Source: Perna viridis (taxonomy: Eukaryota). From it: a DNA stretch of 64,000 nt. Shown one piece after another: positions 37,560 to 60,984 of this stretch (its first letter is position 1; each line of letters opens with the position of its first letter). Position numbers and translations under genes: made by a program. The notes below the pieces were generated by a model. The model saw nothing but the letters and a program-made list of their open reading frames with translations. It was not told where the DNA came from and did no database searches. The DNA lies in NCBI GenBank assembly GCA_037379345.1, contig CM074522.1, positions 37,825,288 to 37,889,287 of the forward strand. The letters are read 5' to 3'.

Positions 37560-38285
37560 TTACCTAGTCCAACCTCTGGAAGTGGTCATTAAACATTCCA
37601 GGTCAATCTCAAAAACAATTTGAAAATACACGTAAACAACAGAATCGGATTAGAAAACTACAAACCGCATTTCTTTTCGGTCTTAATGATAAAATCAGGG
37701 ACAAAAGGAACACATGGATATTGTCGACAAAAGAAAACGCAGTCACAGATCTCATGGTAAACAAATTAATCGAAATAAACGTTTTAGCACGTTCATAGCA
37801 CTTATTATTCACGGAACAATGGTGGATATTAATTGTTATGTCAGTTGGGTTTATTACTTATTATAAAGTATATTATATCTTTAAAGAATGTGCACATACT
37901 AGTATATCTTTTAAAGGTCCATTCTACGAGGGTGATCGCATAATTATATCAAAAATTGTTATCTCGTATAGATAATCCTGAAGATCATAAATGACATTTT
38001 TATGTATAAAACACATCAATAGCGGTATTGATTTCATAAATTGATCAAGCATATTTCAATAAAATAACTGTTCAAAATTGCATACCTCCTATTTTCGATA
38101 ACATTGAACCATCAATTAGTTCTTATAGCTATAAACAATCTAGCAGAAATTTAATTTTTGATTATACATCAGTTATATCGGATGTTAACATTAAAGATAA
38201 TACTCCTTTATCATGAGTTTACTATATTAAAATTCAGATATGAGCCCTGTGGTCATGTTATTCCCAGTGACCTTAACATCATCGA
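37560..38285 (+). mobile_element. Decayed Penelope-like element, N-terminal region
   Basis: Translates to IRKLQTAFLFGLNDKI (GIY-YIG C-terminal-like), IPPIFDNIEPSISSYSY and YEPCGHVIPSDLNII (pre-RT GH-x-x-TGDL motif). Confidence 0.6.
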
Positions 38286-38290
38286 TGACC

Positions 38291-39240
38291 GAGCGCAAGC
38301 TTGAAGAACTATCCAGGCAACTGATGCTGTCTGAATTATCAATTTCTGAAAGTGCTCGTTCAGAACTTGATTCTGGTATCAAACAAGTTAGAACAACAGA
38401 GGGTGGGACTAAGTCTTACTTCACATCAACACACACACTTAATTCAGTATGTTCAATCCACGAACATGCTAATTATGACAGAACTCCGGGAATGGGCGAA
38501 TTTGTTGCTAATCTCAACGGCGTAGAGTTCAGAACTCGTCACAACGATTACAAACTTAAAATGCCAAGTAAAACATCACAAGCCTACCACAGAACGTAGA
38601 ATATTCCATTCCCACGTGTTCCTCCGTCTGTCCTAGCCAAACGTACTCTTAACGACCAAAGAAATGCAGAACTACTTTAGAGCATTTACTTTCCAAAACT
38701 ACCATTTCAGAGACTACCGCCCATACTTCAAGCCAGTTCTTTGTTATCTAGAAGGTGCATGGACAACAAATACAAAGAACATAAACGAACCTTTCGAGAG
38801 CGACCGCCATAACATCGATGTTCAGAATTGGTTTGACCTACAAGAGAAGATCAGATTTACTGCCTATACTGGGGGTAAGCACTACCTGGAAAATTTCTCC
38901 TATCTACCAACAACTATCATGAATATGAACAATGGAACACCCGAGTATGCGCAGTTTAATTATAGAATACTGTGCCATCCACTCAAAAATGATCTTCCTC
39001 TTGGACTTCTGAAACCAGTCGATGACATGGCTGCTAGAGTTGCTCGCAAATTACCCGCATTGCTCACTCCCGTGCTGCGAGATTCTCCCTTGCAGCCGGC
39101 CACCGATTGAAAGGAAATCAGTTCCATTGGCAAGATGGATACGGTGCTTTTAGCGAAAGGAGATATGTTAATGGTTTATTGGACGATCTTATGAATGAGA
39201 ACCCAGGCAAGAACAACAATCCAGCTAAGCTTCACGATAC
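38291..39240 (+). pseudogene. Truncated pseudogene of gene A family (copy 1)
   Basis: Begins at ERKLEE with no signal peptide. Nonsense GAG>TAG at 38597, 4-bp deletion at ~38660, 7-bp deletion at ~39050. Ends abruptly at LHD. Confidence 0.93.
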
Positions 39241-40330
39241 GTAAGAAATCTTTTTAGACGTATTTCCTCATACCACTGATTCAGGAGTCTGTTATGTAAA
39301 GATTTAAGGCGTTTAAGGAAATCAATATAGCTAGTAGTTGCTCTAGCGTAGCGAATCCGTTGAGAAATATAAACACCATATGCAGGAGATGAAGGTCTAA
39401 TGTTGCATAAGTAAGACAAATTAGGATTTTGAATTATAGTGGTCTCTTTTATCATAAATCTTAGTACTAAAATGACCAGTGTTGTCGAATTTAGATCCTA
39501 AAAAGATGCTGAACCAGCTGTTTCTGTAGTCTCCATTATCTCGAGCTTTGGTGGATATATTGAAGGTGACCATGAAGGGTTGTTAGTGGACAACAAATCA
39601 ACAACATGTATCTGTATGGAAAAAAGGATTAAGCATTTTCATATTTTGATTCTTTAGTTTACAAGATTCGGAAGAAATTCAATCTCGAATGAATACAGCA
39701 ATATTGCTAGCAGAGAAACACAATTAGTGCCTGTTGTAATGTCACCTTGTTGATGAAAAATAGCTCGCCAAAATGTAACAAATATGTTATCAATGAGGAA
39801 ATTAAGCATGCTACAAACATATTTTTTCTGTGTATCACACTCCCCCTTTGAGATGTTTATGAAAAAATCGTAGATTTGTAATCTAAAACAACATAATTTC
39901 TCGAATCAGCAAGAGATTTTATCAATTTATCATGTGGCAATGTAGTGCAAAGAGTTGGGAAGGTAAAAGCTTGAGAACTAATTTCCGTAAAACTATAGGA
40001 TTTTCGGTTTTTAAGTAAATCTTTAAATTTTTACGTATCCACATATGATAAATGTAACTACGAGATTAGGTAGTACTTCAACTAGCTTGCTGCCAATCTT
40101 TGACTGCGGACAATGTCTTAGTAAAGTGAATTGACATCTCTGTCGTGGAGCAAGATTCAGAATGCAGCTACGCACCGTTCTTTGTATGGATTCGTATGAC
40201 GTTTGGGAATCCAATACAAGTAAGGAAAGTCCTCATATTTTGTTTCAATGTTGAAAGAAGACATGAAGGTTATTTAGGATTTCATGTTTGTTAAAAGTAG
40301 TTCGTGTATATGTGTAATATTATTATCAAT
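39241..40330 (-). mobile_element. Decayed Penelope-like reverse transcriptase
   Basis: Minus strand: FPYLYWIPKRH, MLNFLIDNIFVTF, TGTNCVSLLA, PSSPAYGVYISQRIRYARA. Confidence 0.85.
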
Positions 40331-40599
40331 GCCTATCAAAGGTCTGAAAATAGATTGCACAAAGATTTAAGAATTAACTGAAAACCAAATCCACGCACAA
40401 GAATTAATACTTATCTTCAGAAACTCGGTTCGAGGTTTGTTTTTGTACTGGCAGACATAGCAGCCAGTAATGTGGTAATGCTGTGACGTAAATACTATAT
40501 AAATGTACTTAAGAATGACATTTCGAATTCTTCTACAGTCCAAGCCATGTACTCAACAAGGAGTCAAATAGTAAATAATCATAATTCTGACAAAGATAA

Positions 40600-41600
40600 G
40601 CTAAAGGCTATACATACGTACTGAAGAAAGTGTGGACAGTTACGATTTCTCCACACTTCACACCACACATCACACCATACTTCACACCACACTTCCAAAT
40701 TATTTATTAATCAGAAATTTTCTTATTAAATGGTGTTTCGATTAAATATTACAAAAATATTTTTGTTGTAATAAATTTCAAGAAATGTCATTTTCTTAGA
40801 CCAACGAGAAATATAAAACTAAAATTACAGGATCCATTTAGGCGTAACAATTTATCGGCAGGTTGTCGGAATTCCGATGGGCACAAGTTGTGACTCCTTC
40901 AATAGCAGATATTCCGGTATTGTTATGTATCTCGGTTTATGGCCAAATTTCCTAACCAAAGATCCTTCCAAATCTGATTTAATAGAAAAAAATATGATAC
41001 TTATCGCTACACTGATGACGCTGAATAACACTGACTTTTACAAATACACTGCTGGAATTTACCCAAAGGAACTGACTTTAAATAAAAGCTATTAAGAACA
41101 GTTTTTTGTTATCCATTTCTGTATTTGGATGCTTCCATTTTTACAAGGTAATCTCAAAACTAACATTTACTACAAGGAGGACGATTTCTCGTTTCCAATT
41201 TTTAATTTTCTCTTTCTCGACGTTCCTTCGGTGTTTATATGTTTCAACTAGTTAGATATGCCCGCGTTTGTAGCGATGTTAGAATTTAATTAACGAGATC
41301 TCTTTATTACCGGTAAATTGTTAAGTCAATGTTTCCGTTACCACACTTTTTTTCTGAATATTGCTCATAAAAATGAAGCGGTGAAGATTTGATGCTGAAG
41401 TTTGGTTGAACTTGTTGCAACATATTCAAAAATTGGATTTCATATCCTGGTTTTTATGGAAATGTAATAAAGCTCAGATCAATTTATTCTTGAAAAATAT
41501 TTGAATAAACTTATTCGTAAGGGTAATTTTCACTGTTTCATTGTCAAATCTTTGCATTATAATTTTATTGGTTCTAATATTGACTCTCATGTTAATAAAT
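40600..41600 (+). mobile_element. Decayed Penelope-like reverse transcriptase
   Basis: VDSYDFSTL, RQVVGIPMGT, YPKELTLNK, DDFSFPIFNF, QLVRYARVCS. Confidence 0.85.
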
Positions 41601-43949
41601 TAAATATCAATTATCTTTAGTATATTTTGCCCTACTTCCTGCCAATACTTTTCATCTTGGCTTTTGCGCGAAAACCTTGTTTTTCTTAGACATTTTATGA
41701 TATGTCTTCACTAAATCCTTTTGAACATGTTTTTATTGTTAATTGTGTCTAAGTAAACTAAGTGGGCTTATCAGTTGCTTTTGCATTTTGAACTTGCTTA
41801 CAGAAACTGTAAGTACTCTTTCGATGTAGGCGCGGCTTGTTGTCTTTTGTCCTAATTGTTAATAGTTTCATATAATTTATATTGGGGCCTTTTACAGCTT
41901 GGCTTATGGAATGGGTTTCGTCCATTATCGAAGATCATGTTGTGACCTTTAGAAGTGTAATTGTTCATGGCTTGGCATTTGGTGGATAGCTAACTCTTCG
42001 GCAATCATACCACGTCTCCTATTATTGTTAGCGACTTCTCCTAGTTGTAATTTCGGTACTTAGTATTCGCATAAATATATAGTTATACGCCACGCAATGC
42101 TGCAGATTCTCGCCGTTTTTTTTTCGCAGTAGCGTCACAGTTCTAACTACATACGAGATAAAAATGTACCTCTTAAGTATCATACAGTTACATGTGTGTT
42201 CTGCGTGTGTTTCTCTCTTGTATGAAAATGGGAAGTTTACATGAAATGATCGGTTAGCTTTGAACATTACCCAGTTTCCGATTCAGGCATTTGGGGTCGT
42301 TACAAGACAATATAGGTCATATACATTAGCACGCCCCAATATTTGTGAATATTCATTGCCAGTTGACTAATCTGGTTCCTGAACTGATTCCCTTGTCAAT
42401 ATAATAAGCGACTCAAAGATTGCTACAAAGTACCTCTTTTAAAACATATACACATTTGACATTTTAGCGGAAGTCACCTGATTTTAGAGCATATCGCATT
42501 CGTAACATTTCGGATGTTGAAAGGAAGCCAAAATCACTGACTGAATATCTGACGATTAGCGACTTTGAAGACTTCAGTCTTTGATATTATATTTTGTATT
42601 TATTACTACTATAGTATTAAGTGAATTTATCTACATGATATGGGTCTTTTAAGACCCTGCCAGGTACTAAAGAGATGGAGGAGAAACCAGAACCGGACTC
42701 ACTGTCAACAGTTGTCTTTGGTACAACGTCGCATTTACAACCTTAAACACTGCAATAATTTACATAAATCAGTATTCAAAAACATAGAAGCAGCAAACTG
42801 TATTGAATCTGCTCTGAGAAATGAGAAATATTTTGTTATACCCTCGACAAAGCCCTGAACAACATTGTTGTTTATGTGAAGCGAATAACTAATGCTCAAC
42901 AAAAGAACCGAGATAAAAGATAATTCTTGTAATCCTACAAACACAATATGTTCTACAAATCATAGGTAACCACAAGTTCTTCATGGCTTCGTTAAATATT
43001 TTTTCAAATGATATCTAGAAGTCTGAGGATTTTCTTTATTTGTAATGGATTCCAAAACTACATTAAAATCAATACAAGCAAAATCATGTACGTGCTCAAC
43101 AAACGAGCCGTCTGGACGCAGTGAAGGAGGGAAAACAAAAATACTGTGAAACTTGCGAATTGCTATTTATTATATGTGGATTTTCCTTTATACTTTTCAA
43201 CATTATATACTACCTTACCCTACGAAAACCTGTCTAAAAGAAGTCAAACACGAAGCATTTCACTGTAAGAATGATAATTCTTACAAATTTGTTATTTTAG
43301 GCTTCGATTCTACAAATTTTACCACTGCAAGATCAAAAGTATCAACACAGAGCAATAGGTGGTCAGTTTGCCAGAGTTTCTCCTTGGCAATATATTTGTC
43401 ACTTTCAAATTGTCACTTTTCTCAACAGGTTATTGTCATTCCAATAAGTATTCATCGTCCCCTACTCCTAGCCGACCGGTTTCTATATTCATATGAATCA
43501 GAGTTTGTTCAAATTCTTATGAAAGATTCCAGAACTAAATTATAGAGACAACTGACACATCTTTTACACGTCCTTTTTTTTTACTTCACTTATATGACAA
43601 CCGTGGTCATTCCTTTTTTTTTTTTTTTTTTTTTTTCGATGGATAAATAAACGTATGCCATGCTCCAAATTTAGCAATTTGAAATGAAGGAACATGGTTA
43701 ATATAACGATGTGTGAAATTAAAGGATGTAGATTCTTTAACCTTCTTGAGATTCAAGTATAAAATCCTGCCTTGCACTTTATGTTTGTATGATCTGTTTC
43801 ATGTTTTTTTTTTAATTAAATGAAAATAAGGTAAGACCCAAGACATCTCAGTTGATGTAATATTCAACGAGGCAATGTAGGATTTACGGATAACTAGGAT
43901 TTCATCCTTGTACAGCGTTTGTATATAGTATTACCAGATTATATTTAAT

Positions 43950-44700
43950 TCCTTGTTCTTGTCTTTGATAAAGAACCACCCAGATGAAACTTCTATAAAT
44001 TTTATATGATCCGCCATTCGGTTTAAAGATAGTTTCACTACTAGTCTTTAGCATTATAAAATTCATAAATTAATTTTCTCTACATATCTTAAAAAATGGA
44101 AAAAAAATATATTTAGACAAAAACAAAAGGTGTTTAGATGACTAAACGAAATATCTAGACGGAAAGCACATAGGTAGTTTAAAACTACCTAGATGCTTCC
44201 TTGGGTGATCCTGGGGGTAGATGCGAAGTATTTAATATTCCAATATAGGATTGAAACGTCTGAATATCATCCGTATAGCAAAAACTAAAATTAAAGGATA
44301 TGGCAAAACGAAGTTCATTCTTTTGGATAACATCAGCTTTATAAGAGTAAAGGCATATGTCAGCAAGTATCGGGGCATAATTTGTACCCATTGGAATGAA
44401 GACATATAGTTGCACAACGCTTGGCACATATCTGTTGTCGATAGAAATTTGATAACATCTTTCTCAGAATATTTAGAAGATCATTTGGAATCGTTTTTGT
44501 TCGCGTATTTGTATCTAGATGCTCCACCATTCTTAGAATATCAACGATGCTGACTGCTTTTGAATCGGAATCTTAACAGAGAATTTTGAAAAGTATAAAG
44601 AGGAAAATTAGAGGTATATCGCTATTATTAAATTCCGAAAGCAGTTTAGCGAGTTCCAAGACGATCTTCCCAATTATAATCTAGCTGTTCTTGTCGAAAT
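43950..44700 (-). mobile_element. Decayed Penelope-like reverse transcriptase
   Basis: IPMGTNYAPILADICLYSYKAD...FNFSFCYTDD (RT core with a degenerate YxDD). Confidence 0.8.
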
Positions 44701-46469
44701 TTTCAAACAACCTCAACACATTTCATTATATCAAGGTGTTTAAATGTGTTTTTATTTTGTGCGTTGTCTTTTGTACCTGTACCTTTCTTTTTATCATCTT
44801 TGTATTGTCCTTGTTGTAATTGTTGGGTTTGTTGGGTTCACAAAAATATTTTATGTACTATTTATTTGTGCCCAAGTTATTGCACTTGAACTCAACAAAA
44901 TACGCCTGAGTGTTCAAGACATAAAGTTAGGGAAAATTAGAATAACTTATCTTTAGAGTACTTCTTGTGCATATCAAATCATGTCTTAAAGTAATATTGA
45001 CTATATGTTTGTAGACAGTTTCTGCAATAATACAAAAACAAAAAAAAAACAAAAAAAAAAAAAAAACAGCCTGAATACGGCAACTTAAGATAAAACAGAA
45101 CGTCTTTAATTTTACATCGAAACCTGTGTTAACCATAGCCTGAACAAACAAAAACCCGATTCTTTTCTTTTTTCTCTCGGTTTTTGTGTAAATAATCTGT
45201 TGTTATTTGATTGTTCATGTTACAACATGACAGTGGTTGTTTTGCGTATTGAATGTTACATTTTTTTGTTATTCTTCAAACTTACTGTATTTTTTCATTT
45301 ATTCATTTTCAGTCAGCCCAAAAAGAATTTTATTTGCATGATAACTGACAAACTGCAAATAATATGAACAGTAAGTATATATAAATAAGAAATAAGTAAA
45401 AATAGCCACAATTTAAAAGGTGAAAAAGGAAATAAATACAAAATACAAACAAAACGTATTGGGCGAAAATTTTCTGATTTACTGACTTTGTTTCAATTGA
45501 AACAACTTCGTAGATGTTTATGTAATATCAGGTTGGGAAACGAGATATAATGAATTATGCATTCTTAAGATAATAATCGACATATAATTATTACATGCAA
45601 GTTTATGATTGGCGAAGTGGATACTTAAGTTATAATGTAACTAAATACTACTTCATGATGAACAATTTCTTTTAATTCGCATTGATGAGCAAGGAATGAT
45701 TCTTTCATTTCTTTTATAACAAGGCAGCATTTGATAAAGCAGAAACAAATAATTAAAGGTTCGGTGAGGTTCTCATTACTTCGATCGAGTTAAGATACAT
45801 ACAGATTCAAAATTAGGTTTCATTAGTTATTAGATGATACAGGAAAGTTGAAATGCCAAATGGTGTTTAGAAATCTGTAATTGTTTTCTAAAATTAACTG
45901 TACAGATGAAGTTTTATAATCAAAACGACAAAATGTACACAGAAAAACATTTAATAAGGAATTAACTCAAATAATGCCTTAATTATTGCCAGAAAACGTT
46001 TGGCCTCAACGCGGTGCACAACGGACATTGAACAGAAATTCGACTCTAATTGTGTAAATAGTTTAAGTCTTTTTGTTAATCATTTTTGCAAAATTGATAC
46101 ACATATCAACGTTAAATTCCTCTTTGTTTATTTGCAAACATATCGCAGACGAATCTATTTATAACATTATAGCTTATAATGCTCTTTATAACAGCTCCTC
46201 AGAGCATTTTCCCTTTTTGTATTTACTTTCCCCTTTTTCGCTCTACAAGTATATGTATGTAATAAAAATACATCGGAAGCATGTGCAACATGTCCTTAAA
46301 ATATGATACATTCTACCTTTCTTTTTTTTTCCTAGGCAATTGTTCTTTTATATCAAAGATCTTGCACTTAGTAATCATGACCCCAGACAAAAGTAACCCA
46401 AAGGCTACAAAATAATCATTGTCGATTTCATATCACAAACACTGGCTGGTGGTGCAATTGACCTGCACG

Positions 46470-46570
46470 TATATAACAGAAACAGTTATGGTTGTAGTCA
46501 AGTATTTCGCAGGGTCGATCGTGAATCCCTAAGCAGCCTGTTGTAGAATCGAACCATCAGAAAGGTAACT
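46470..46570 (+). promoter_or_regulatory. Candidate TATA box plus non-coding exon 1 of the chimeric gene (same at 59285-59385 for gene B)
   Basis: TATATAA at 46470, then a GC-richer ~65-nt stretch and donor AAAG|gtaact at 46565. Acceptor ttacag at 48163, 8 nt before the ATG. Confidence 0.4.
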
Positions 46571-47352
46571 TTTATACTAAGATATATACAATATGTATGT
46601 TCCGATAATTTGTTTTGTGTAAATGTTAAAACTTATCAAAATACCCTTATTTCAACTTGCTTTAAATTTGAAATTGAGCGGATAACTTTAAGGAAAAGAA
46701 AATATTGATATAATTCAATGTCCTCATAGAGGAAAAGGGTTAACTTGTAAAATATTTTTATGATATTGTGACAAGTTTGCTCAACGTTTGTGTTAATGCG
46801 TAATCATAGCATATCACTTCTGATACATAATTTTTATTTTAGTAAGAAAAATGTGTATTTTTTTTATCACTCATTTTTAAATGCTATACCAAATTAGGAC
46901 AATTACGGTGATTTCAAAGTTTCATGGTTTTTTACCCTTATTTTGCCATTTCCTTTTGACTCTTATTTTTGACAACTGGTTAAATGTTCTCTGTTCGGTA
47001 ATTTTGCCATTACACTTTTTTATGAAAATTCACACTCGTGTTGTGCAAATGTAAGACAAAAGATCGCTATTTTTTTAAATGTATTCACTAATATCATGTA
47101 AACTCACCATCGCATTAACGTACTAACTGGAATAATTTGGCAAATATGAAAATCATTTTCCTCTTGAATGTTTCTCAGCAAAACTGTGGTCTATTTGTTT
47201 TATGTCACACAAAGTATCTTGAAAATTAATTTCAAATTGAATGGCCAATTTAAAAAAATACTCGTTGGATATCTCCCGTCAAAGTTTGGATCTTCATTTT
47301 CAATGAGCTTAAGCTAGTAAACATTGGTTTGTTAAATGATTATAACTATATA

Positions 47353-47552
47353 CTGTGAAAGTACTTTAATTCGTGGATACCAATTTCCGTTGATTAGGGA
47401 AGAAACACAAATTCGTGGATTCTTGAATTCGTGGTTTTGTGGTTTTTAGTATACACGGAAATCTTCTTGTCGTTGGGAACCAAATTTCGTGGTTTGGCCT
47501 ACCCACGAAAACCATGAAAGTTTGTACCCCACGAATAATGGTGCTTTCACAG
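47353..47552. mobile_element. 200-bp MITE with TA target duplication
   Basis: TA|CTGTGAAAGTAC ... GTGCTTTCACAG|TA, with internal ttcgtgg/ccacgaa repeats. Confidence 0.85.
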
Positions 47553-48171
47553 TATCCTTTTAGCGAAATTAAAGGAATAATCGATAGAAAAAAAACATCC
47601 TTGTTACCTTCATTTCTAAATGTCGAGATAGGGCTTGTAAAAGAATGGGTCCCTAATTTCTCTTCAAAGAGTAATCAAGGAAACCAGATTCGAGCAGAAA
47701 ACACAAGAATACTAAGTATTATACAAGGAAAACTGATACATACAAAAATGAACATAAAATAATCAAAATGACAAGCACAAAGAAACAAAAGAAAATGAAC
47801 AACTCGGACTCTACCAAAAACTGGGAGCAAAAGCATAGAAAGTTGTTGTTTTTAGAGTAAAGACTGCAATCAAATCAACGCAAACATTTATGTTAGATGT
47901 GATGATAAACATATGACTCTTACTATCCGTTTACTATGATGAGTTTGTACGAAATAAAAAAAAATGCCTCTAATTATACATCACAATAAGTAGCAAAATA
48001 CATAGCTTCCTTTTTGGATACTTTACGAAATATATATATTACGGTCTGCAAAGGAATCGTGAAGGATACTAACTATCCTTTTAACATGAGAAACCACTAC
48101 AGCACAATAGTTAGGACATATTAAATAGAAAAACAATAATGATCAGTTATATTGATCTTACAGAAACTACG

Positions 48172-50214
48172 ATGAAAACCTTTTTGGTTTTATCTTGGTT
48201 GGTTACTGTCACCATGGCAGTGGTTGACGAACATCGAGTCAGCTTATTAGAGCGCAAGCTTGAAGAACTGTCTAGACAACTTATGTTGACCGAGTTATCG
48301 ATATCTGAGAGAGCTCGTTCACAACTGGACTCTGGTATCAAACAAGTTAGAATAACGGGAGATGGAACCAAACCTTATTTCACATCAACACACACACTTA
48401 ATTCAGTATGTTCAATCCACGAACATGCTAATTATGACAGAACTCCGGGAATGGGCGAATTTGTTGCTAATCTCAACGGCGTAGAGTTCAGAACTCGTCA
48501 CAACGATTACAAACTTAAAATGCCAAGTAAAACATCACAAGCCTACCACAAAACGGAGGATATTCCATTCCCACGTGTTCCTCCGTCTGTCCTAGCCAAA
48601 CGTACTCTTAACGACCAAATTAAAGAAATGCAGAACTACTTTAGAGCATTTACTTTCCAAAACTACCATTTCAGAGACTACCGCCCATACTTCAAGCCAG
48701 TTCTTTGTTATCTAGAAGGAGCATGGACAACAAATACAAAGAACATAAACGAACCTTTCGAGAGCGACCGCCATCACATCGATGCTCAGAATTGGTTTGA
48801 CCTACAAGAAAAGATCAGATTTACTGCCTATACTGGGGGTAAGCACTACCTGGAAAATTTCTCCTATCTACCAACAACTATCATGAATATGAACAATGGA
48901 ACACCCGAGTATGCGCAGTTCAATTATAGAATACTGTGCCATCCACTCAAAAATGATCTTCCTCTTGGACTTCTGAAACCAGTCGATGACATGGCTGCTA
49001 GAGTTGCTCGCAAATGGAACATTACCCGCTTTGCTCACTCCCGTGCTGCGAGATTCTCCCTTGCAGCCGACCACCGATTGAGAGGAAATCAGTTCCATTG
49101 GCAAGATGGATACGGTGCTTTTAGCGAAAGGAGATATGTTAATGGTTTATTGGACGATCTTATGAATGAGATCCCAGGCAAGAACAACTATCCAGCTAAG
49201 CTTCACGATACAACATTTGATATGAAGACAGTTGACTCTCGCCATCCACAGAACGCGACCCTGCTGAACACCGGATATTACCACAGATACTACAACCATG
49301 ATAGAAAAGGTGCCATGGGAACGTTCAGAAACCATAGAGGGTACTCAGACTCAAACTTGTTCGTCGCTCAAACTTCAAATCCAGAGGTCGCTGAAATGAA
49401 AATAAAATGGTGCAGGAAGGATAACCACCACAAACAAATCTGTACCCAGGAAGGAATCCGATACTCGTACGCCATTCCATTGGAGATTATTTACATGACA
49501 CCTCTCATGTCATGGAACCCTCACAATCTACCTACAATCACCGACCATAGAAAATTCTATAAAGTTACCCATGGTGGAAGAAATGGTGGATTAACAAAGG
49601 ACAAAGCATACAATGGAACTGCCCTGAACAATTACTACCACACTCCAGTCGAATTTTTCCACGGTACCAATGTCGACAAGGATAGGGCCGACACCGACAA
49701 AGGTGCAGTAGGTGTTCTAGACAGTCATGGTAACGTCAAGCGTGTCGTAGCATCCGGTGTACGCATCACATTGCCCGACATTCCAGGAGTCGGCAAAGTT
49801 AGGATGAGGTACCCGATCATGCCAGTAGCAGCCGAGGGAGACCCCACAAGGAAGGAATTAGAAGCTGTTAAAGAGGTTCTTAACCATCTTGAAACAATGG
49901 GATCGTATCTTCAGGAGAAACCAAGTTCCCTTTCAGGCGGTGGTAACGCTAAAGCTGATGCTCACTTCAGAACCTCCGTTACCAACCAAGATCCACCAGG
50001 TCATCACTATCACGAACTGTTTATCCCCAACGAGGACATGCTCGCACTAGGCAAAGGAGAGACAGTCGCCGTTGTTACCACTACTGACAACAACCACGAC
50101 CACACACTCGAGATTTCATATAACACACAAACCCACAAATACACTATACACAAATGTGACGGATTGGCTCATTGTTGGGACGGCCACACTCCAGACCTAG
50201 TTCGACTAGAATGA
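48172..50214 (+). CDS. Uncharacterised secreted His/Cys-motif protein, chimeric gene B/A (680 aa)
   Basis: Start MKTFLVLSWLVTVTMA after the acceptor at 48163 (the ORF-track Met at 48139 is likely intronic). The first ~210 nt match gene B, the remainder is gene A-like. Confidence 0.92.
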   Translation: MKTFLVLSWLVTVTMAVVDEHRVSLLERKLEELSRQLMLTELSISERARSQLDSGIKQVRITGDGTKPYFTSTHTLNSVCSIHEHANYDRTPGMGEFVANLNGVEFRTRHNDYKLKMPSKTSQAYHKTEDIPFPRVPPSVLAKRTLNDQIKEMQNYFRAFTFQNYHFRDYRPYFKPVLCYLEGAWTTNTKNINEPFESDRHHIDAQNWFDLQEKIRFTAYTGGKHYLENFSYLPTTIMNMNNGTPEYAQFNYRILCHPLKNDLPLGLLKPVDDMAARVARKWNITRFAHSRAARFSLAADHRLRGNQFHWQDGYGAFSERRYVNGLLDDLMNEIPGKNNYPAKLHDTTFDMKTVDSRHPQNATLLNTGYYHRYYNHDRKGAMGTFRNHRGYSDSNLFVAQTSNPEVAEMKIKWCRKDNHHKQICTQEGIRYSYAIPLEIIYMTPLMSWNPHNLPTITDHRKFYKVTHGGRNGGLTKDKAYNGTALNNYYHTPVEFFHGTNVDKDRADTDKGAVGVLDSHGNVKRVVASGVRITLPDIPGVGKVRMRYPIMPVAAEGDPTRKELEAVKEVLNHLETMGSYLQEKPSSLSGGGNAKADAHFRTSVTNQDPPGHHYHELFIPNEDMLALGKGETVAVVTTTDNNHDHTLEISYNTQTHKYTIHKCDGLAHCWDGHTPDLVRLE

Positions 50215-50444
50215 GGAACAACTTTAATAGGATACCAGTAGTAAAATACTAATAAACAAATGAAAAGTTCAGTTATCTTTATTTTAATTACCAGTAATAA
50301 AAATAACTCTCCTTCAGAACATACCCCCACAAGAAAAACAAAAACAAAAAACAAACCAAAAAAACAAAAAAAAAAAACAAAAAAAAATTTACCAAACATA
50401 CAAACAAAACAAAAATACCGAAACTGATGAAAAAAAAGACTTAA

Positions 50445-51170
50445 TTACCTAGTCCAACATCTGGAAGTGGTCATTAAACATTCCAGGTCAATCTCAAAAA
50501 CAATTTGAAAATACACGTAAACAACAGAATCGGATTAGAAAACTACAAACCGCATTTCTTTTCGGTCTTAATGATAAAATCAGGGACAAAGGGAACACAT
50601 GGATATTGTCGACAAAAGAAAACGCAGTCACAGATCTCATGGTAAACAAATTAATCGAAATAAATGTTTTAGCACGTTCATAGCACTTATTATTCACGGA
50701 ACAATGGTGGATATTAATTGTTATGTCAGTTGGGTTTATTACTTATTATAAAGTATATTATATCTTTAAAGAATGTGCACATACTAGTATATCTTTTAAA
50801 GGTCCATTCTACGAGGGTGATCGCATAATTATATCAAAAATTGTTATCTCGTACAGATAATCCTGAAGATCATAAATGACATTTTTATGTATAAAACACA
50901 TCAATAGCGGTATTGATTTCATACATTGATCAAGCATATTTCAATAAAATAACTGTTCAAAATTGCATACCTCCTATTTTCGATAACATTGAACCATCAA
51001 TTAGTTCTTATAGCTATAAACAATCTAGCAGAAATTTAATTTTTGATTATACATCAGTTATATCGGATGTTAACATTAAAGATAATACTCCTTTATCATG
51101 AGTTTACTATATCAAAATTCAGATATGAGCCCTGTGGTCATGTTATTCCCAGTGACCTTAACATCATCGA
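50445..51170 (+). mobile_element. Duplicate of PLE N-terminal fragment
   Basis: Near-identical to 37560-38285. Confidence 0.6.
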
Positions 51171-51175
51171 TGACC

Positions 51176-52125
51176 GAGCGCAAGCTTGAAGAACTATCCA
51201 GGCAACTGATGCTGTCTGAATTATCAATTTCTGAAAGTGCTCGTTCAGAACTTGATTCTGGTATCAAACAAGTTAGAACAACAGAGGGTGGGACTAAGTC
51301 TTACTTCACATCAACACACACACTTAATTCAGTATGTTCAATCCACGAACATGCTAATTATGACAGAACTCCGGGAATGGGCGAATTTGTTGCTAATCTC
51401 AACGGCGTAGAGTTCAGAACTCGTCACAACGATTACAAACTTAAAATGCCAAGTAAAACATCACAAGCCTACCACAGAACGTAGAATATTCCATTCCCAC
51501 GTGTTCCTCCGTCTGTCCTAGCCAAACGTACTCTTAACGACCAAAGAAATGCAGAACTACTTTAGAGCATTTACTTTCCAAAACTACCATTTCAGAGACT
51601 ACCGCCCATACTTCAAGCCAGTTCTTTGTTATCTAGAAGGTGCATGGACAACAAATACAAAGAACATAAACGAACCTTTCGAGAGCGACCGCCATAACAT
51701 CGATGCTCAGAATTGGTTTGACCTACAAGAGAAGATCAGATTTACTGCCTATACTGGGGGTAAGCACTACCTGGAAAATTTCTCCTATCTACCAACAACT
51801 ATCATGAATATGAACAATGGAACACCCGAGTATGCGCAGTTTAATTATAGAATACTGTGCCATCCACTCAAAAATGATCTTCCTCTTGGACTTCTGAAAC
51901 CAGTCGATGACATGGCTGCTAGAGTTACTCGCAAATTACCCGCATTGCTCACTCCCGTGCTGCGAGATTCTCCCTTGCAGCCGGCCACCGATTGAAAGGA
52001 AATCAGTTCCATTGGCAAGATGGATACGGTGCTTTTAGCGAAAGGAGATATGTTAATGGTTTATTGGACGATCTTATGAATGAGAACCCAAGCAAGAACA
52101 ACAATCCAGCTAAGCTTCACGATAC
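51176..52125 (+). pseudogene. Truncated pseudogene of gene A family (copy 2)
   Basis: Same stop (51482-51484), frameshifts and breakpoints as 38291-39240. Confidence 0.93.
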
Positions 52126-53225
52126 GTAAGAAATCTTTTTAGACGTATTTCCTCATACCACTGATTCAGGAGTCTGTTATGTAAAGATTTAAGGCGTTTA
52201 AGGAAATCAATATAGCTAGTAGTTGCTCTAGCGTAGCGAATCCGTTGAGAAATATAAACACCATATGCAGGAGATGAAGGTCTAATGTTGCATAAGTAAG
52301 ACAAATTAGGATTTTGAATTATAGTGGTCTCTTTTATCATAAATCTTAGTACTAAAATGACCAGTGTTGTCGAATTTTAGATCCTAAAAAGATGCTGAAC
52401 CAGCTGTTTCTGTAGTCTCCATTATCTCGAGCTTTGGTGGATATATTGAAGGTGACCATTAACCAATGAAGGGTTGTTAGTGGACAACAAATCAACAACA
52501 TGTATCTGTATGGAAAAAAGGATTAAGCATTTTCATATTTTGATTCTTTAGTTTACAAGATTCGGAAGAAATTCAATCTCGAATGAATACAGCAATATGG
52601 CTAACAGAGAAACACAATTAGTGCCTGTTGTAATGTCACCTTGTTGCTGAAAAATAGCTCGCCAAAATGTAACAAATATGTTATCAATGAGGAAATTAAG
52701 CATGCTACAAACATATTTTTTCTGTGTATCACACTCCCCCTTTGAGATGTTTATGAAAAAATCGTAGATTTGTAATCTAAAACAACATAATTTCTCGAAT
52801 CAGCAAGAGATTTTTTTCATTTTATCATGTGGCAATGTAGTGCAAAGAGTTGGGAAGTTAAAAGCTTGAGAACTAATTTCCGTAAAACTATAGGATTTTC
52901 GGTTTTTAAGTAAATCTTTAAATTTTTACGTATCCACATATGATAAATGTAACTACGAGATTAGGTAGTACTTCAACTAGCTTGCTGCCAATCTTTGACT
53001 GCGGACAATGTCTTAGTAAAGTGAATTGACATCTCTGTCGTGGAGCAAGATTCAGAATGCAGCTACGCACCGTTCTTTGTATGGATTCGTATGACGTTTG
53101 GGAATCCAATACAAGTAAGGAAAGTCCTCATATTTTGTTTCAATGTTGAAAGAAGACATGAAGGTTATTTAGGATTTCATGTTTGTTAAAAATAGTTCGT
53201 GTATATGTGTAATATTATTATCAAT
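52126..53225 (-). mobile_element. Duplicate decayed Penelope-like RT
   Basis: Near-identical to 39241-40330. Confidence 0.85.
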
Positions 53226-53494
53226 GCCTATCAAAGGTCTGAAAATAGATTGCACAAAGATTTAAGAATTAACTGAAAACCAAATCCACGCACAAGAATT
53301 AATACTTAACTTCAGAAACTCGGTTCGAGGTTTGTTTTTGTACTGGCAGACATAGCAGCCAGTAATGTGGTAATGCTGTGACGTAAATACTATATAAATG
53401 TACTTAAGAATGACATTTCGAATTCTTCTACAGTCCAAGCCATGTACTCAACAAGGAGTCAAATAGTAAACAATCATAATTCTGACAAAGATAA

Positions 53495-54495
53495 GCTAAA
53501 GGCTATACATACGTATTGAAGAAAGTGTGGACAGTTACGATTTCTTCACACTTCACACCACACATCACACCATACTTCACACCACACTTCCAAATTATTT
53601 ATTAATCAGAAATTTTCTTATTAAATGGTGTTTCGATTAAATATTACAAAAATATTTTTGTTGTAATAAATTTCAAGAAATGTCATTTTCTTAGACCAAC
53701 GAGAAATATAAAACTAAAATTACAGGATCCATTTAGGCGTAACAATTTATCGGCAGGTTGTCGGAATTCCGATGGGCACAAGTTGTGACTCCTTCAATAG
53801 CAGATATTCCGGTATTGTTATGTATCTCGGTTTATGGCCAAATTTCCTAACCAAAGATCCTTCCAAATCTGATTTAATAGAAAAAAATATGATACTTATC
53901 GCTACACTGATGACGCTGAATAACACTGACTTTTACAAATACACTGCTGGAATTTACCCAAAGGAACTGACTTTAAATAAAAGCTATTAAGAACAGTTTT
54001 TTGTTATCCATTTCTGTATTTGGATGCTTCCATTTTTACAAGGTAATCTCAAAACTAACATTTACTACAAGGAGGACGATTTCTCGTTTCCAATTTTTAA
54101 TTTTCTCTTTCTCGACGTTCCTTCGGTGTTTATATGTTTCAACTAGTTAGATATGCCCGCGTTTGTAGCGATGTTAGAATTTAATTAACGAGATCTCTTT
54201 ATTACCGGTAAATTGTTAAGTCAATGTTTCCGTTACCACACTTTTTTTCTGAATATTGCTCATAAAAATGAAGCGGTGAAGATTTGATGCTGAAGTTTGG
54301 TTGAACTTGTTGCAACATATTCAAAAATTGGATTTCATATCCTGGTTTTTATGGAAATGTAATAAAGCTCAGATCAATTTATTCTTGAAAAATATTTGAA
54401 TAAACTTATTCGTAAGGGTAATTTTCACTGTTTCATTGTCAAATCTTTGCATTATAATTTTATTGGTTCTAATATTGACTCTCATGTTAATAAAT
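53495..54495 (+). mobile_element. Duplicate decayed Penelope-like RT
   Basis: Near-identical to 40600-41600. Confidence 0.85.
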
Positions 54496-56392
54496 TAAAT
54501 ATCAATTATCTTTAGTATATTTTGCCCTACTTCCTGCCAATACTTTTCATCTTGGCTTTTGCGCGAAAACCTTGTTTTTCTTAGACATTTTATGATATGT
54601 CTTCAGTAAATCCTTTTGAACATGTTTTTATTGATAATTGTGTCTAAGTAAACTAAGTGGGCTTATCAGTTGCTTTTGCATTTTGAACTTGCTTACAGAA
54701 ACTGTAAGTACTCTTTCGATGTAGGCGCGGCTTGTTGTCTTTTGTCCTAATTGTTAATAGTTTCATATAATTTATATTGGAGCCTTTTACAGCTTGGTTT
54801 ATGGAATGGGTTTCGTCCATTATCGAAGATCATGTTGTGACCTTTAGAAGTGTAATTGTTCATGGCTTGGCATTTGGTGGATAGCTAACTCTTCGGCAAT
54901 CATACCACGTCTCCTATTATTGTTAGCGACTTCTCCTAGTTGTAATTTCGGTACTTAGTATTCGCATAAATATATAAGTAATGCTGCAGATCCTCGCCGT
55001 TTTTTTTTCGCAGTAGCGTCACAGTTCTAACTACATACGAGATAAAAATGTACCTCTTAAGTATCATACAGTTACATGTGTGTTCTGCGTGTGTTTCTCT
55101 CTTGTATGAAAATGGGAAGTTTACATGAAATGATCGGTTAGCTTTGAACATTACCCAGTTTCCGATTCAGGCATTTGGGGTCGTTACAAGACAATACAGG
55201 TCATATACATTAGCACGCCCCAATATTTATGAATATTCATTGCCAGTTGACTAATCTGGTTCCTAAACTGATTCCCTTGTCAATATAATAAGCGACTCAA
55301 AGATTGCTACAAAGTACCTCTTTTAAAACATATACACATTTGACATTTTAGCGGAAGTCACCTTATTTTAGAGCATAGCGCATTCGTAACATTTCGGATG
55401 TTGAAAGGAAGCCAAAATCACTGACTGAATATCTGACGATTAGCGACTTTGAAGACTTCAGTCTTTGATATTATATTTTGTATTTATTACTACTATAGTA
55501 TTAAGTGAATTTATCTACATGCTATGGGTCTTTTAAGACCCTGCCAGGTACTAAAGAGATGGAGGAGAAACCAGAACCGGACTCACTGTCAACAGTTGTC
55601 TTTGGTACAACGTCGCATTTACAACCTTAAACACTGCAATAATTTACATAAATCAGTATTCAAAAACATAGAAGCAGCAAACTGTATTGAATCTGCTCTG
55701 AGAAATGAGAAATATTTTGTTATACCCTCGACAAAGCCCTGAACAACATTGTTGTTTATGTGAAGCGAATAACTACTAATGCTCAACAAAAGAACCGAGA
55801 TAAAAGATAATTCTTGTAATCCTACAAACACAATATGTTCTACAAATCATAGGTAACCACAAGTTCTTCATGGCTTCGGTAAATATTTTTTCAAATGACA
55901 TCTAGAAGTCTGAGGATTTTCTTTATTTGTAATGGATTCCAAAACTACATTAAAATCAATACAAGCAAAATCATGTACGTGCTCAACAAACGAGCCGTCT
56001 GGACGCAGTGAAGGAGGGAAAACAAAAATACTGTGAAACTTGCGAATTGCTATTTATTATATGTGGATTTTACTTTATACTTTTCAACATTATATACTAC
56101 CTGACCCTACGAAAACCTGTCTAAAAGAAGTCAAACACGAAGCATTTCACTGTAAGAATGATAATTCTTACAAATTTGTCACTTTCAAATTGTCACTTTT
56201 CTCAACAGGTTATTGTTATTCCAATAAGTATTCATCGTCCCCTACTCCTAGCCGACCGGTTTCTATATTCATATGAATCAGAGTTTGTTCAAATTCTTAT
56301 GAAAGATTCCAGAACTAAATTAAAGAGACAACTGACACATCTTTTACACGTCCTTTTTTTTTTACTTCACTTATATGACAACCGTGGTCATT

Positions 56393-56425
<33 letters not shown>

Positions 56426-56729
56426 ATGGATAAATAAACGCATGCCATGCTCCAAATTTAGCAATTTGAAATGAAGGAACATGGTTAATATAACGATGTG
56501 TGAAATTAAAGGATGTAGATTCTTTAACCTTCTTGAGATTCAAGTATAAAATCTTGCCTTGCACTTTATGTTTGTATGATCTGTTTCATGTTTTTTTTTA
56601 ATTAAATGAAAATAAGGTAAGACCCAAGACATCTCAGTTGATGTAATATTCAACGAGGCAATGTAGGATTTACGGATAACTAGGATTTCATCCTTGTACA
56701 GCGTTTGTATATAGTATTACCAGATTATA

Positions 56730-57490
56730 TTTAATTCCTTGTTCTTGTCTTTGATAAAGAACCACCCAGATGAAACTTCTATAAATTTTATATGATCCGC
56801 CATTCGGTTTAAAGATAGTTTCACTACTAGTCTTTAGCATTATAAAATTCATAAATTAATTTTCTCTACATATCTTAAAAAATGGAAAAAAAAATATTTA
56901 GACAAAAACAAAAGGTGTTTAGATGACTAAACGAAATATCTAGACGGAAAGCACATAGGTAGTTTAAAACTATCTAGATGCTTCCTTGGGTGATCCTGGG
57001 GGTAGATGCGAAGTATTTAATATTCCAATATAGGACTGAAACGTCTGAATATCATCCGTATAGCAAAAACTAAAATTAAAGGATATGGCAAAACGAAGTT
57101 CATTCTTTTGGATAACATCAGCTTTATAAGAGTAAAGGCATATGTCAGCAAGTATCGGGGCATAATTTGTACCCATTGGAATGAAGACATATAGTTGCAC
57201 AACGCTTGGCACATATCTGTTGTCGATAGAAATTTGATAACATCTTTCTCAGAATATTTAGAAGATCATTTGGAATCGTTTTTGTTCGCGTATTTGTATC
57301 TAGATGCTCCATCATTCTTAGAATATCAACGATGCTGACTGCTTTTGAATCGGAATCTTAACAGAGAATTTTGAAAAGTATAAAGAGATGGAAAATTAGA
57401 GGTATATCGCTATTATTAAATTCCGAAAGCAGTTTAGCGAGTTCCAAGACGATCTTCCCAATTATAATCTAGCTGTTCTTGTCGAAATTT
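56730..57490 (-). mobile_element. Duplicate decayed Penelope-like RT
   Basis: Near-identical to 43950-44700. Confidence 0.8.
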
Positions 57491-57822
57491 TCAAACAACC
57501 TCAACACATTTCAATATATTTCAAGGTGTTTAAATGTGTTTTTATTTTGTGCGTTGTCTTTTGTACCTGTACCTTTCTTTTTATCATCTTTGTATTGTCC
57601 TTGTTGTAATTGTTGGGTTTGTTGGGTTCACAAAAATATTTTATGTACTATTTATTTGTGCCCAAGTTATTGCACTTGAACTCAACAAAATACGCCTGAG
57701 TGTTCAAGACATAAAGTTAGGGAAAATTAGAATAACTTATCTATAGAGTACTTCTTGTGCATATCAAATCATGTCTTAAAGTAATATTGACTATATGTTT
57801 GTAGACAGTTTCTGCAATAATA

Positions 57823-57882
<60 letters not shown>

Positions 57883-60167
57883 AGCCTGAATACGGCAACT
57901 TAAGATAAAACAGAACGTCTTTAATTTTACATCGAAACCTGTGTTAACCTTAGCCTGAACAAACAAAAACCCGATTCTTTTCTTTTTTCTCTCGGTTTTT
58001 GTGTAAATAATCTGTTGTTATTTGATTGTTCATGTTACAACATGACAGTGGTTGTTTTGCGTATTGTATGTTACATTTTTTTTGTTATTCTTCAAACTTA
58101 CTGTATTTTTTCATTTATTCATTTTCAGTCAGCCCAAAAAGTATTTTATTTGCATGATAACTGACAAACTGCAAATAATATGAACAGTAAGTATATATAA
58201 ATAAGAAATAAGTAAAAATAGCCACAATTTAAAAGGTGAAAAAGGAAATAAATACAAAATACAAACAAAACGTATTGGGCGAAAATTTTCTGATTTACTG
58301 ACTTTGTTTCAATTGAAACAACTTCGTAGATGTTTATGTAATATCAGGTTGGGAAACGAGATATAATGAATTATGCATTCTTAAGATAATAATCGACATA
58401 TAATTATTACATGCAAGTTTATGATTGGCGAAGTGGATACTTAAGTTATAATGTAACTAAATACTACTTCATGATGAACAATTTCTTTTAATTCGCATTG
58501 ATGAGCAAGGAATGATTCTTTCATTTCTTTTATAACAAGGCAGCATTTGATAAAGCAGAAACAAATAATTAAAGGTTCGGTGAGGTTCTCATTACTTCGA
58601 TCGAGTTAAGATACATACAGATTCAAAATTAGGTTTCATTAGTTATTAGATGATACAGGAAAGTTGAAATGCCAAATGGTGTTTAGAAATCTGTAATTGT
58701 TTTCTAAAATTAACTGTACAGATGAAGTTTTATAATCAAAACGACAAAATGTACACAGAAAAACATTTAATAAGGAATTAACTCAAATAATGCCTTAATT
58801 ATTGCCAGAAAACGTTTGGCCTCAACGCGGTGCACAACGGACATTGAACAGAAATTCGACTCTAATTGTGTAAATAGTTTAAGTCTTTTTGTTAATCATT
58901 TTTGCAAAATTGATACACATATCAACGTTAAATTCCTCTTTGTTTATTTGCAAACATATTGCAGACGAATCTATTTATAACATTATAGCTTATAAAGCTC
59001 TTTATAACAGCTCCTCAGAGCATTTTCCCTTTTTGTATTTACTTTCCCCTTTTTCGCTCTACAAGTATATGTATGTAATAAAAATACATCGGAAGCATGT
59101 GCAACATGTCCTTAAAATATGATACATTCTACCTTTCTTTTTTTCCTAAGCAATTGTTCTTTTATATCAAAGATCTTGCACTTAGTAATCATGACCCCAG
59201 ACAAAAGTAACCCAAAGGCTACAAAATAATCATTGTCGATTTCATATCACAAACACTGGCAGGTGGTGCAATTGACCTGCACGTATATAACAGAAACAGT
59301 TATGGTTGTAGTCAAGTATTTCGCAGGGTCGATCGTGATTCCCTAAGCAGCCTGTTGTAGAATCGAACCATCAGAAAGGTAACTTTTATACTAAGATATA
59401 TACAATATGTATGTTCCGATAATTTGTTTTGTGTAAATGTTAAAACTTATCAAAATACCCTTATTTCAACTTGCTTTAAATTTGAAATTGAGCGGATAAC
59501 TTTAAGGAAAAGAAAATATTGATATAATTCAATGTCCTCATAGAGGAAAAGGGTTAACTTGTAAAATATTTTTATGATATTGTGACAAGTTTGCTCAACG
59601 TTTGTGTTAATGCGTAATCATCGCATATCACTTCTGATACATAATTTTTATTTTAGTAAGAAAAATGTGTATTTTTTTTATCACTCATTTTTAAATGCTA
59701 TACCAAATTAGGACCATTACGGTGGTTTCAAAGTTTCATGGTTTTTTACCCTTATTTTGCCATTTCCTTTTGACTCTTATTTTTGACAACTGGTTAAATG
59801 TTCTCTGTTCGGTAATTTTGCCATTACACTTTTTTTATGAAAATTTACACTCGTGTTGTGCAAATGTAAGACAAAAGATCGCTATTTTTTTAAATGTATT
59901 CACTAATATCATGTAAACGCACCATCGCATTAACGTACTAACTGGAATAATTTGGCAAATATGAAAATCATTTTCCTCTTGAATGTTTCTCAGCAAAACT
60001 GTGGTCTATTTGTTTTATGTCACACAAAGTATTTTGAAAATTAATTTCAAATTGAATGGCCAATTTAAAAAAATACTCGTTGGATATCTCCCGTCAAAGT
60101 TTGGATCCTCATTTTCAATGAGCTTAAGCTAGTAAAAATTGGTTTGTTAAATGATTATAACTATATA

Positions 60168-60367
60168 CTGTGAAAGTACTTTAATTCGTGGATACCAATT
60201 TCCGTTGATTAGGGAAGAAACACAAATTCGTGGATTCTTGAATTCGTGGTTTTGTGGTTTTTAGTATACACGGAAATCTTCTTGTCGTTGGGAACCAAAT
60301 TTCGTGGTTTGGCCTACCCACGAAAACCATGAAAGTTTGTACCCCACGAATAATGGTGCTTTCACAG
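60168..60367. mobile_element. 200-bp MITE (duplicate of 47353-47552)
   Basis: Same TIRs and TA duplication. Confidence 0.85.
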
Positions 60368-60984
60368 TATCCTTTTAGCGAAATTAAAGGAATAATCGAT
60401 AAAAAAAAAAACATCCTTGTTACCTTCATTTCTAAATGTCGAGATAGGGCTTGTAAAAGAATGGGTCCCTAATTTCTCTTCAAAGAGTAATCAAGGAAAC
60501 CAGATTCGAGCAGAAAACACAAGAATACTAAGTATTATTCAAAGAAAACTGATACATACAAAAATGAACATAAAATAACCAAAATGACAAGCACAAAGAA
60601 ACAAAAGAAAATGAACTTGGACTCTACCAAAAACTGGGAGCAAAAGCATAGAAAGTTGTTGTTTTTAGAGTAAAGACTGCAATCAAATCAACGCAAACAT
60701 TTATGTTAGATGTGATGATAAACATATGACTCTTACTATCCGTTTACTATGATGAGTTTGTACGAAATAAAAAAAAATGCCTCTAATTATACATCACAAT
60801 AAGTAGCAAAATACATAGCTTCCTTTTTGGATACTTTACGAAATATATATATTACGGTCTGCAAAGGAATCGTGAAGGAGACTAACTATCCTTTTAACAT
60901 AAGAAACCACTACAGCACAATAGTTAGGACATATTAAATAGAAAAACAATAATGATCAGTTATATTGATCTTACAGAAACTACG

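What the first reader, a model, noticed from the sequence alone, without database searches (positions are those of the whole stretch)
48164..50214. Middle gene is a B/A chimera: signature of unequal crossing-over, with crossover at ~48382-48441
Seen: upstream sequence and the first ~210 coding nt of the middle gene match gene B (MKTFLVLSWL..., ataacgggagatggaaccaaaccttatttc). From 48442 on it matches gene A at nearly all A/B diagnostic sites (RTPG, LKMP, EGAW, NHHKQICT, HTPDLVRLE), and its 3' flank is A-type. The architecture A-spacer-B/A-spacer-B is what misaligned recombination between A and B produces (Lepore/anti-Lepore logic). Consequence (inference): an essentially A-type mature protein placed under B's promoter and signal peptide, and probable copy-number polymorphism.
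Basis: partly seen in the sequence, partly recalled or inferred. Interest (0 to 1): 0.7.

Follow-up and report, generated by a model that had tools for sequence, protein, structure and literature searches.

The report
Young hybrid gene in a mussel
A mussel-like bivalve carries an intact extra gene whose front end comes from one neighbouring gene and whose body comes from the other, likely made by a misaligned crossover; it is a new example of a textbook way to make genes.

Summary
Confirmed, and not an assembly artefact as far as indirect data show. The middle gene M (CDS 48172-50214) matches gene B at 38 of 38 A/B-diagnostic coding sites up to 48381 and gene A at 83 of 85 after it. It sits at the join of a 12.8-kb tandem duplication whose units differ by 0.6%: the anti-Lepore layout A, B/A, B. 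Contig depth in four public DNA runs is 1.6-2.0x over the spacer and 3.9-4.5x over the shared gene core, against 1.8 and 4.0 modelled for a homozygous duplication and 0.9 and 2.4 for falsely joined haplotypes. So the duplication looks real and common; the suggested copy-number polymorphism was not seen. An RNA contig shows a spliced B-type leader exon 1.6 kb upstream, which M inherits. 48382-48441 is only the minimal switch interval: it opens a 950-bp tract where A and B are 99% identical, and several markers there look private to this B allele. No read spanning the switch could be examined. The protein is a predicted secreted 680-residue member of an unnamed invertebrate family. Known mechanism, new instance.

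The parts
28194..30242 (-). Gene C, older paralogue (682 aa, 67-68% identical to M), outside the duplication
   Evidence: groups with Mytilus C-type proteins in the tree
35285..37327 (+). Gene A coding sequence (680 aa), donor of the hybrid's body
35495..48381 (+). Repeat unit 1 (A body, spacer, B-type leader and first 210 coding bases)
   Evidence: a contig of run X1 begins exactly at 35495
38291..39240 (+). Broken internal fragment F1 of the gene (A-type 5' part, no signal peptide, stop codon and frameshifts)
46485..46564 (+). B-type non-coding leader exon upstream of M (5' end approximate)
   Evidence: contig 1 of run X11 joins 78 letters ending in this sequence to 48162; GT donor at 46565
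46565..48163 (+). Leader intron of M, GT..AG; contains the upstream in-frame ATG at 48139, which is therefore not the start
48172..48381 (+). B-derived part of the M coding sequence (codons 1-70, predicted signal peptide 1-16)
   Evidence: 38 of 38 diagnostic sites equal B; hydrophobic N-terminus
48382..48441 (+). Minimal switch interval: 60 bases identical in A, M and B
48382..49331 (+). 950-bp tract where A and B differ at only 9 sites; the likely substrate of the misalignment and the outer bound of the crossover
48442..50214 (+). A-derived part of the M coding sequence
   Evidence: 83 of 85 diagnostic sites equal A
48382..61194 (+). Repeat unit 2, 99.4% identical to unit 1
   Evidence: spacer present exactly twice in the assembly
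51176..52125 (+). Broken fragment F2, copy of F1
59299..59378 (+). Leader exon of gene B, by alignment with the copy upstream of M
   Evidence: 46400-46620 matches 59214-59434 at 99%
60985..63027 (+). Gene B coding sequence (680 aa), donor of the hybrid's leader and signal peptide

Best explanation
The middle gene is an intact hybrid, gene B up to coding base 210 and gene A thereafter, sitting at the join of a 12.8-kb tandem duplication that likely arose by a misaligned crossover between A and B. Shown: the letter-by-letter switch, the unit boundaries inside the gene, the B-type leader exon and intron, and doubled contig depth in four DNA runs. Inferred: (1) earlier gene conversion made the middle 950 bp of A and B 99% identical; (2) B on one chromatid paired with A on another and exchanged in that tract, most simply in 48382-48441 and probably before 48705; (3) the duplicated chromosome spread to high frequency; (4) M would deliver an A-type secreted protein wherever B's promoter is active, adding a third dose of a near-identical protein. 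Whether that was selected or drifted is not shown.
For: Switch statistics. Units 0.6% apart while A and B differ at 13 of 31 and 27 of 126 fourfold-degenerate sites outside the tract and 2 of 126 inside it, so M is far younger than A/B. No extra bases at the join. Spacer twice and flank once in the assembly. Single-contig depth, spacer over AT-matched flank 1.63, 1.94, 2.03, 1.90 and gene core over gene C 3.92, 3.95, 4.51, 4.32 in X1, X2, X5, X3, against 1.8/4.0 (homozygous duplication), 1.3-1.4/3.2 (heterozygous) and 0.9/2.4 (false join) from a 31-mer model. B-type 5' end and A-type 3' end both above single copy (1.5-2.2x and 1.9-3.1x). 34 of 36 listed in-unit variant letters are the unit-2 letters. 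Five Mytilus species list two A/B-like proteins plus one C-like protein, mostly with consecutive accessions, so the extra copy looks derived. Spliced B-type leader in X11.
Against: No read or contig bridges the switch: contigs break at the 60-base identical stretch, and the three raw-read RNA runs gave 0, 2 and 0 reads. The read tool warns that contig depth is not a copy number; I used single-contig values from truncated tables (40 of 79 variant rows, about 8 longest pieces per run). Against the mixed-GC flank the low-depth runs give only 1.40 (X1) and 1.62 (X3), and 1.40 also fits a heterozygote. The product cannot tell a meiotic crossover from a homology-guided template switch. M-specific transcripts are not shown, since M and B are identical over the X11 contig's aligned part.
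Confidence: 0.85

Rival explanations
1. Assembly artefact: two haplotypes of an A-spacer-B locus were joined in tandem through the near-identical middle of A and B, giving the same layout on paper.
For: The units differ by 0.6%, a plausible allele-level distance. The exact M protein is not in the 15-billion protein collection, but neither are A and B. No read spans the switch.
Against: The false-join model predicts 0.9x spacer and 2.4x core depth; all four runs show 1.6-2.0x and 3.9-4.5x. Spacer contigs exceed the deepest flank contig in 12 of 13, 15 of 15, 13 of 13 and 13 of 16 cases. Leaving out X2, which may be the source or close to it (1 substitution in 5.7 kb of flank), three samples from two studies remain.
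Confidence: 0.04
2. Same duplication, but the crossover lay further 3' (up to 49331 or near the stop codon) and later gene conversion from A, or new mutations in B, moved the apparent switch to 48382-48441.
For: Seven of the nine A/B differences in the tract are carried by B alone against A, M, F1 and F2. B's Ala91 (48442) replaces a Thr found in 111 of 114 family members. In X11 a B-like contig has the B letters at 48705 and 48720 but ends as if lacking 48721, and no rows appear for 48442, 48517-48518, 48621 or 48939 (contigs drop variants, so this is a hint). A and M are identical over 1289 bases.
Against: At 48720 and 48921, where B shares its letter with F1 and F2, M follows A, and the B letter at 48705 is present in X11; this places the exchange before 48705 unless conversion followed. 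M's whole 3' third and 3' flank are A-type.
Confidence: 0.3
3. The duplication was made by a replication template switch or sister-chromatid exchange using the same homology, not by a crossover between homologous chromosomes.
For: Such events leave the same seamless junction (established knowledge). Non-coding unit divergence of 0.69% exceeds contig-versus-reference differences in the flank of 0.02-0.25%, so the units may have diverged after, not before, the event.
Against: No templated insertion or second junction. Not separable from the sequence alone.
Confidence: 0.2
4. The duplication is a common copy-number polymorphism.
For: X1 gives 1.40 against the mixed flank, equal to the heterozygous model. 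Arrays like this can contract again by the same route (inference).
Against: With GC-matched baselines all four runs exceed the heterozygous expectation in both measures.
Confidence: 0.2

Closest known systems
Anti-Lepore HBB/HBD fusion genes of mammalian beta-globin clusters (PMC4041002; abstract, outline and section 10 read)
   Same: Duplication product of unequal crossing-over: 5' flank and 5' coding part from the downstream gene, 3' part and 3' flank from the upstream gene, intact frame, prior interparalogue conversion, coding sequence of one gene under the promoter of the other.
   Different: Unrelated protein family in a bivalve; intronless coding sequence; units only 0.6% apart; both parents are still intact here, whereas that abstract says parents were typically inactivated or deleted once the fusion was fixed.
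CYP11B1/CYP11B2 chimera of glucocorticoid-remediable aldosteronism (PMC8750845; search listing and start of abstract only)
   Same: Chimeric fusion from unequal crossing over between two similar neighbouring genes.
   Different: That is a rare human disease allele; this duplication appears in all four samples examined and no phenotype is known.
Unnamed ~680-residue protein family of molluscs, corals, brachiopods and annelids (e.g. Mytilus VDH89427, 72% identical)
   Same: M, A, B and C are members: 647 hits at E <= 0.001, the 120 listed at 43-73% identity.
   Different: Named Mytilus records show two A/B-like proteins per assembly; the window has three plus two fragments. No listed relative has a functional name that a family scan supports.

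Membership tests
Anti-Lepore-type chimeric duplication | Hybrid lies between both parental genes in the same orientation | tested here: met
   A 35285, M 48172, B 60985, all on +
Anti-Lepore-type chimeric duplication | 5' flank and 5' coding part from the downstream gene; 3' part and 3' flank from the upstream gene, with one switch | tested here: met
   38 of 38 and 83 of 85 sites; flanks
Anti-Lepore-type chimeric duplication | Whole intergenic segment duplicated, junction inside homologous sequence without added bases | tested here: met
Anti-Lepore-type chimeric duplication | Exists as a real chromosome, not an assembly join | tested here: met
   Indirect: contig depth fits the duplicated model in 4 of 4 runs; no spanning read
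Anti-Lepore-type chimeric duplication | Hybrid is transcribed from the donor promoter | tested here: inconclusive
   B-type spliced leader seen in X11, but M and B are identical there
Anti-Lepore-type chimeric duplication | Origin by meiotic crossover, with a reciprocal A/B deletion product | not testable with these tools
   Needs pedigrees or population long reads
False tandem duplication of haplotypes | Units together carry single-copy depth | tested here: not met
   1.6-2.0x observed versus 0.9x modelled
Copy-number polymorphism | Individuals with different unit numbers | tested here: inconclusive
   4 samples, all nearer the homozygous model; X1 and X3 are low-depth
Any named protein family or solved fold | Profile or structure match | tested here: inconclusive
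   No significant match; a missing match does not show a new fold

The most novel reading that the evidence does not exclude
A very young anti-Lepore gene that has already swept to fixation in a mussel and is transcribed as strongly as its two intact parents, selected because it moves the A-type version of an abundant secreted, possibly metal-binding protein of undescribed fold into B's expression domain. The only expression hint: in X11 the B-type 5' contig is 76-80% as deep as shared mid-gene contigs while B-type body contigs make up 31-39%; the tool warns contig depth is a poor measure of expression.
Probability: 0.15. Interest if true: 0.55.

Novelty: new member of a known kind. Interest (0 to 1): 0.35.

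Why it matters
It is a clean, young case of promoter-swap gene birth outside vertebrates, with both parents intact beside it, so the early fate of such hybrids could be tested directly with allele-specific expression and population long reads. It also warns that short-read expression of this locus cannot be assigned to A, M or B. The mechanism itself is textbook, A and B proteins are 96% identical, and no phenotype or function is known, so a specialist would not be very surprised.

Tried and rejected
No RNA holder was listed as such by the run search. Raw RNA runs X21, X22, X23 gave 0, 2 and 0 reads on 48050-50450: no test of M expression. Contigs cannot phase the switch because the identical stretch (60 bases) is longer than the 31-base word. 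Bin-summed depths are inflated by interspersed repeats and overlapping contigs and were not used; I left out depth cells that were sums of two contigs for X2 and X5, but one such X3 cell (15.9) stayed in. Exact look-up found none of five A, M, B protein forms, only C. Protein identity: no Pfam hit at E <= 1 for M or C, only sub-threshold hits in 4 of 11 further queries, no PDB sequence match at E <= 10, no usable Atlas hit for a Mytilus homologue, no fold match for the full model (Foldseek best E 0.28, best Z 5.6, rmsd 4.9, 164 aligned) or the C-terminal domain (best E 0.14, best Z 3.7, rmsd 3.3, 69 aligned); the middle domains were not folded alone. The 691-residue frames from ATG 48139 and 60952 were rejected because that ATG lies in the leader intron. 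No homologue of B's leader exon was found upstream of A, and A's promoter was not located. No further units lie in the 16.7 kb beyond the window or elsewhere in the assembly. Literature: four searches for this locus or family found nothing relevant (0 papers; 1 unrelated paper, listing only); the library lacks most subscription journals and supplements were not searched, so this does not show it is unpublished. Earlier scan findings: none. The tree (26 rows) puts A, M, B in their own clade apart from the Mytilus pairs; it cannot separate a lineage-specific A/B duplication from an old one homogenised by conversion.

Full report
Observation. The window holds three intact, intronless 680-codon frames in tandem, A (35285-37327), M (48172-50214) and B (60985-63027), and an older paralogue C on the minus strand (28194-30242). 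Aligning A, M and B shows one switch: M equals B at 38 of 38 coding differences up to 48381 and equals A at 83 of 85 after it, p about 1e-29. The exceptions are two silent sites where M equals B (49671, 49986) and one silent site unique to M (49803). M's upstream DNA is B's and its downstream DNA is A's.

Anatomy. M sits at the join of two units, 35495-48381 and 48382-61194, that differ by 78 substitutions and 20 indels; non-coding divergence is 0.69%. Each unit carries a broken internal fragment of the gene. A and B are old relative to this: they differ at 13 of 31 fourfold-degenerate sites in codons 1-70 and 27 of 126 in codons 387-680, but at only 2 of 126 in between. That middle tract (48382-49331 in M, 9 differences in 950 bases) looks like a gene-conversion patch (inference) and is the obvious substrate for misalignment. 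At protein level M differs from A at five signal-peptide residues and residue 61, and from B at 19 residues. A contig from run X11 matches 48162-48411 with no differences and continues into 78 letters that end in sequence found at 46534-46562 (compared); a GT donor at 46565 and an AG acceptor at 48162-48163 flank the gap. So B-type genes have a non-coding leader exon 1.6 kb upstream, the start codon is 48172, and M inherits B's promoter region, leader, intron and signal peptide.

Is the duplication real? A false join of two haplotypes would give the same layout, so this was the main test. The spacer occurs exactly twice in the assembly and the flank once. I laid contigs of four DNA runs (X1, X2, X5, X3: four samples, three studies) on 28400-48381. 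The tool warns that contig depth is not a copy number, so I ignored the summed bins and took one value per distinct contig from its tables, which show 40 of 79 variant rows and about 8 pieces per run. Spacer contigs were deeper than the deepest flank contig in 12 of 13, 15 of 15, 13 of 13 and 13 of 16 cases; median ratios to the whole flank were 1.40, 1.84, 2.11 and 1.62. With GC-matched baselines the spacer ratios are 1.63, 1.94, 2.03, 1.90 and the contig over the gene core shared by all copies is 3.92, 3.95, 4.51, 4.32 times gene C. A 31-mer model of the window predicts 1.8 and 4.0 for a homozygous duplication, 1.3-1.4 and 3.2 for a heterozygote, and 0.9 and 2.4 for a false join. All four runs reject the false join and lie nearest the homozygous model; X1 is the least clear. 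X2 may be the source or near it (1 substitution in 5.7 kb of flank); without it three samples from two studies remain. B-type 5' and A-type 3' contigs are both above single copy, which by counting needs one gene with a B start and an A end. Of 36 listed variant letters inside the unit, 34 are the unit-2 letters, and M's unique letter at 49803 appears in contigs of three of the four runs. No molecule spanning the switch was seen: contigs break there and the raw RNA runs barely cover the gene.

Where was the crossover? 48382-48441 is the interval between the last B-type and first A-type letter given this B allele. Its left edge is firm: a contig of X1 starts at 35495 and one of X11 ends at 48411, the break points expected if A-type and B-type 5' ends merge there. 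Its right edge is soft. Seven of the nine tract differences belong to B alone against A, M and both fragments; the one at 48442 changes a threonine kept in 111 of 114 family members; and X11 shows B letters at 48705, 48720 and 48921 but no rows for 48442, 48517-48518, 48621, 48721 or 48939 (weak, as contigs drop variants). A safer statement is 48382 to about 48704, outer limit 49331.

Relatives and protein. The closest named proteins are from Mytilus (72%), then scallops and oysters, with members in gastropods, brachiopods, annelids and corals, so the host is likely a mussel. Five Mytilus species each list two A/B-like proteins and one C-like protein, mostly under consecutive accessions (adjacency inferred, loci not seen), which makes C-A-B the likely older state. 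A, M and B form their own clade (100/100) beside the Mytilus pairs. The protein has a hydrophobic N-terminus and folds with mean pLDDT 91; the C-terminal 94 residues fold alone at 93.6. Residues H612, H614, H642, H644, C662, C668, D670 and H672 are at least 95% conserved in 114 sequences, which suggests a metal site (inference). Searches for a family or fold are listed under Tried and rejected.

Mechanism. Most likely B on one chromatid paired with A on another through the converted tract and exchanged there, duplicating the 12.8 kb between and creating M; the duplicated chromosome then became common. M would put A-type protein under B's control and add a third dose. The hybrid structure, the leader and the depth pattern are shown; the recombination route, M's own transcription and any selection are inferred. 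A weak hint for M transcription: in X11 the B-type 5' contig is 76-80% as deep as shared mid-gene contigs, while B-type body contigs account for 31-39%.

Comparison. This is the anti-Lepore arrangement described for mammalian HBB/HBD fusion genes, including prior conversion and promoter acquisition (PMC4041002; abstract, outline and section 10 read). The CYP11B1/CYP11B2 chimera is a second case (PMC8750845, listing only). It meets the structural definition; expression and meiotic origin are untested. It differs in lineage, protein family, youth, and in keeping both parents intact. Four searches found no paper on this locus or family.

Verdict. A real, well-formed new instance of a known kind of event. 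Interest 0.35.

Noticed in passing
window 48172-50214 and relatives: The protein belongs to a large unnamed invertebrate family (647 hits) with a confident model, no Pfam or PDB match in my searches, and a conserved His/Cys/Asp cluster in the C-terminal domain that may bind metal. The family may deserve study on its own.
   Followed up: partly
window 38291-39240 and 51176-52125: Broken internal copies of the gene, A-type at the 5' end, with a stop codon and frameshifts; 96.5% identical to A and carried along in both units.
   Followed up: partly
window 61255 (48442 in M numbering): This B allele has Ala at residue 91, where 111 of 114 family members have Thr; possibly a mildly harmful private variant.
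   Followed up: partly
G000:C10:39405923-39416167: A second, distant pair of the same family (42-43% identical to M), about 8 kb apart on another contig.
   Followed up: no
window 30242-35285: Genes C and A are divergently oriented with about 5 kb between them; A has an AG acceptor just before its ATG like B, but its leader exon and promoter were not found.
   Followed up: partly
window 16356-17895: Long tandem array with a period of about 31 bases, in two diverged blocks (self-comparison).
   Followed up: no
window 6742-7190: Tandem repeat with a period of about 50 bases, 90-94% identical copies.
   Followed up: no
window 20640-21544 and 25609-26517: Inverted pair of about 900 bases at 82% identity, with internal repeats.
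   Followed up: no
window 43287-43394: A 107-base segment present in unit 1 and absent from unit 2, the largest indel between the units; usable as a PCR marker.
   Followed up: no
window about 31000-31700, 34400-35000, 39100-40400, 41700-43000, 47100-47900: High-copy interspersed repeats, seen as depth spikes of 10- to several-hundred-fold in all four DNA runs.
   Followed up: no
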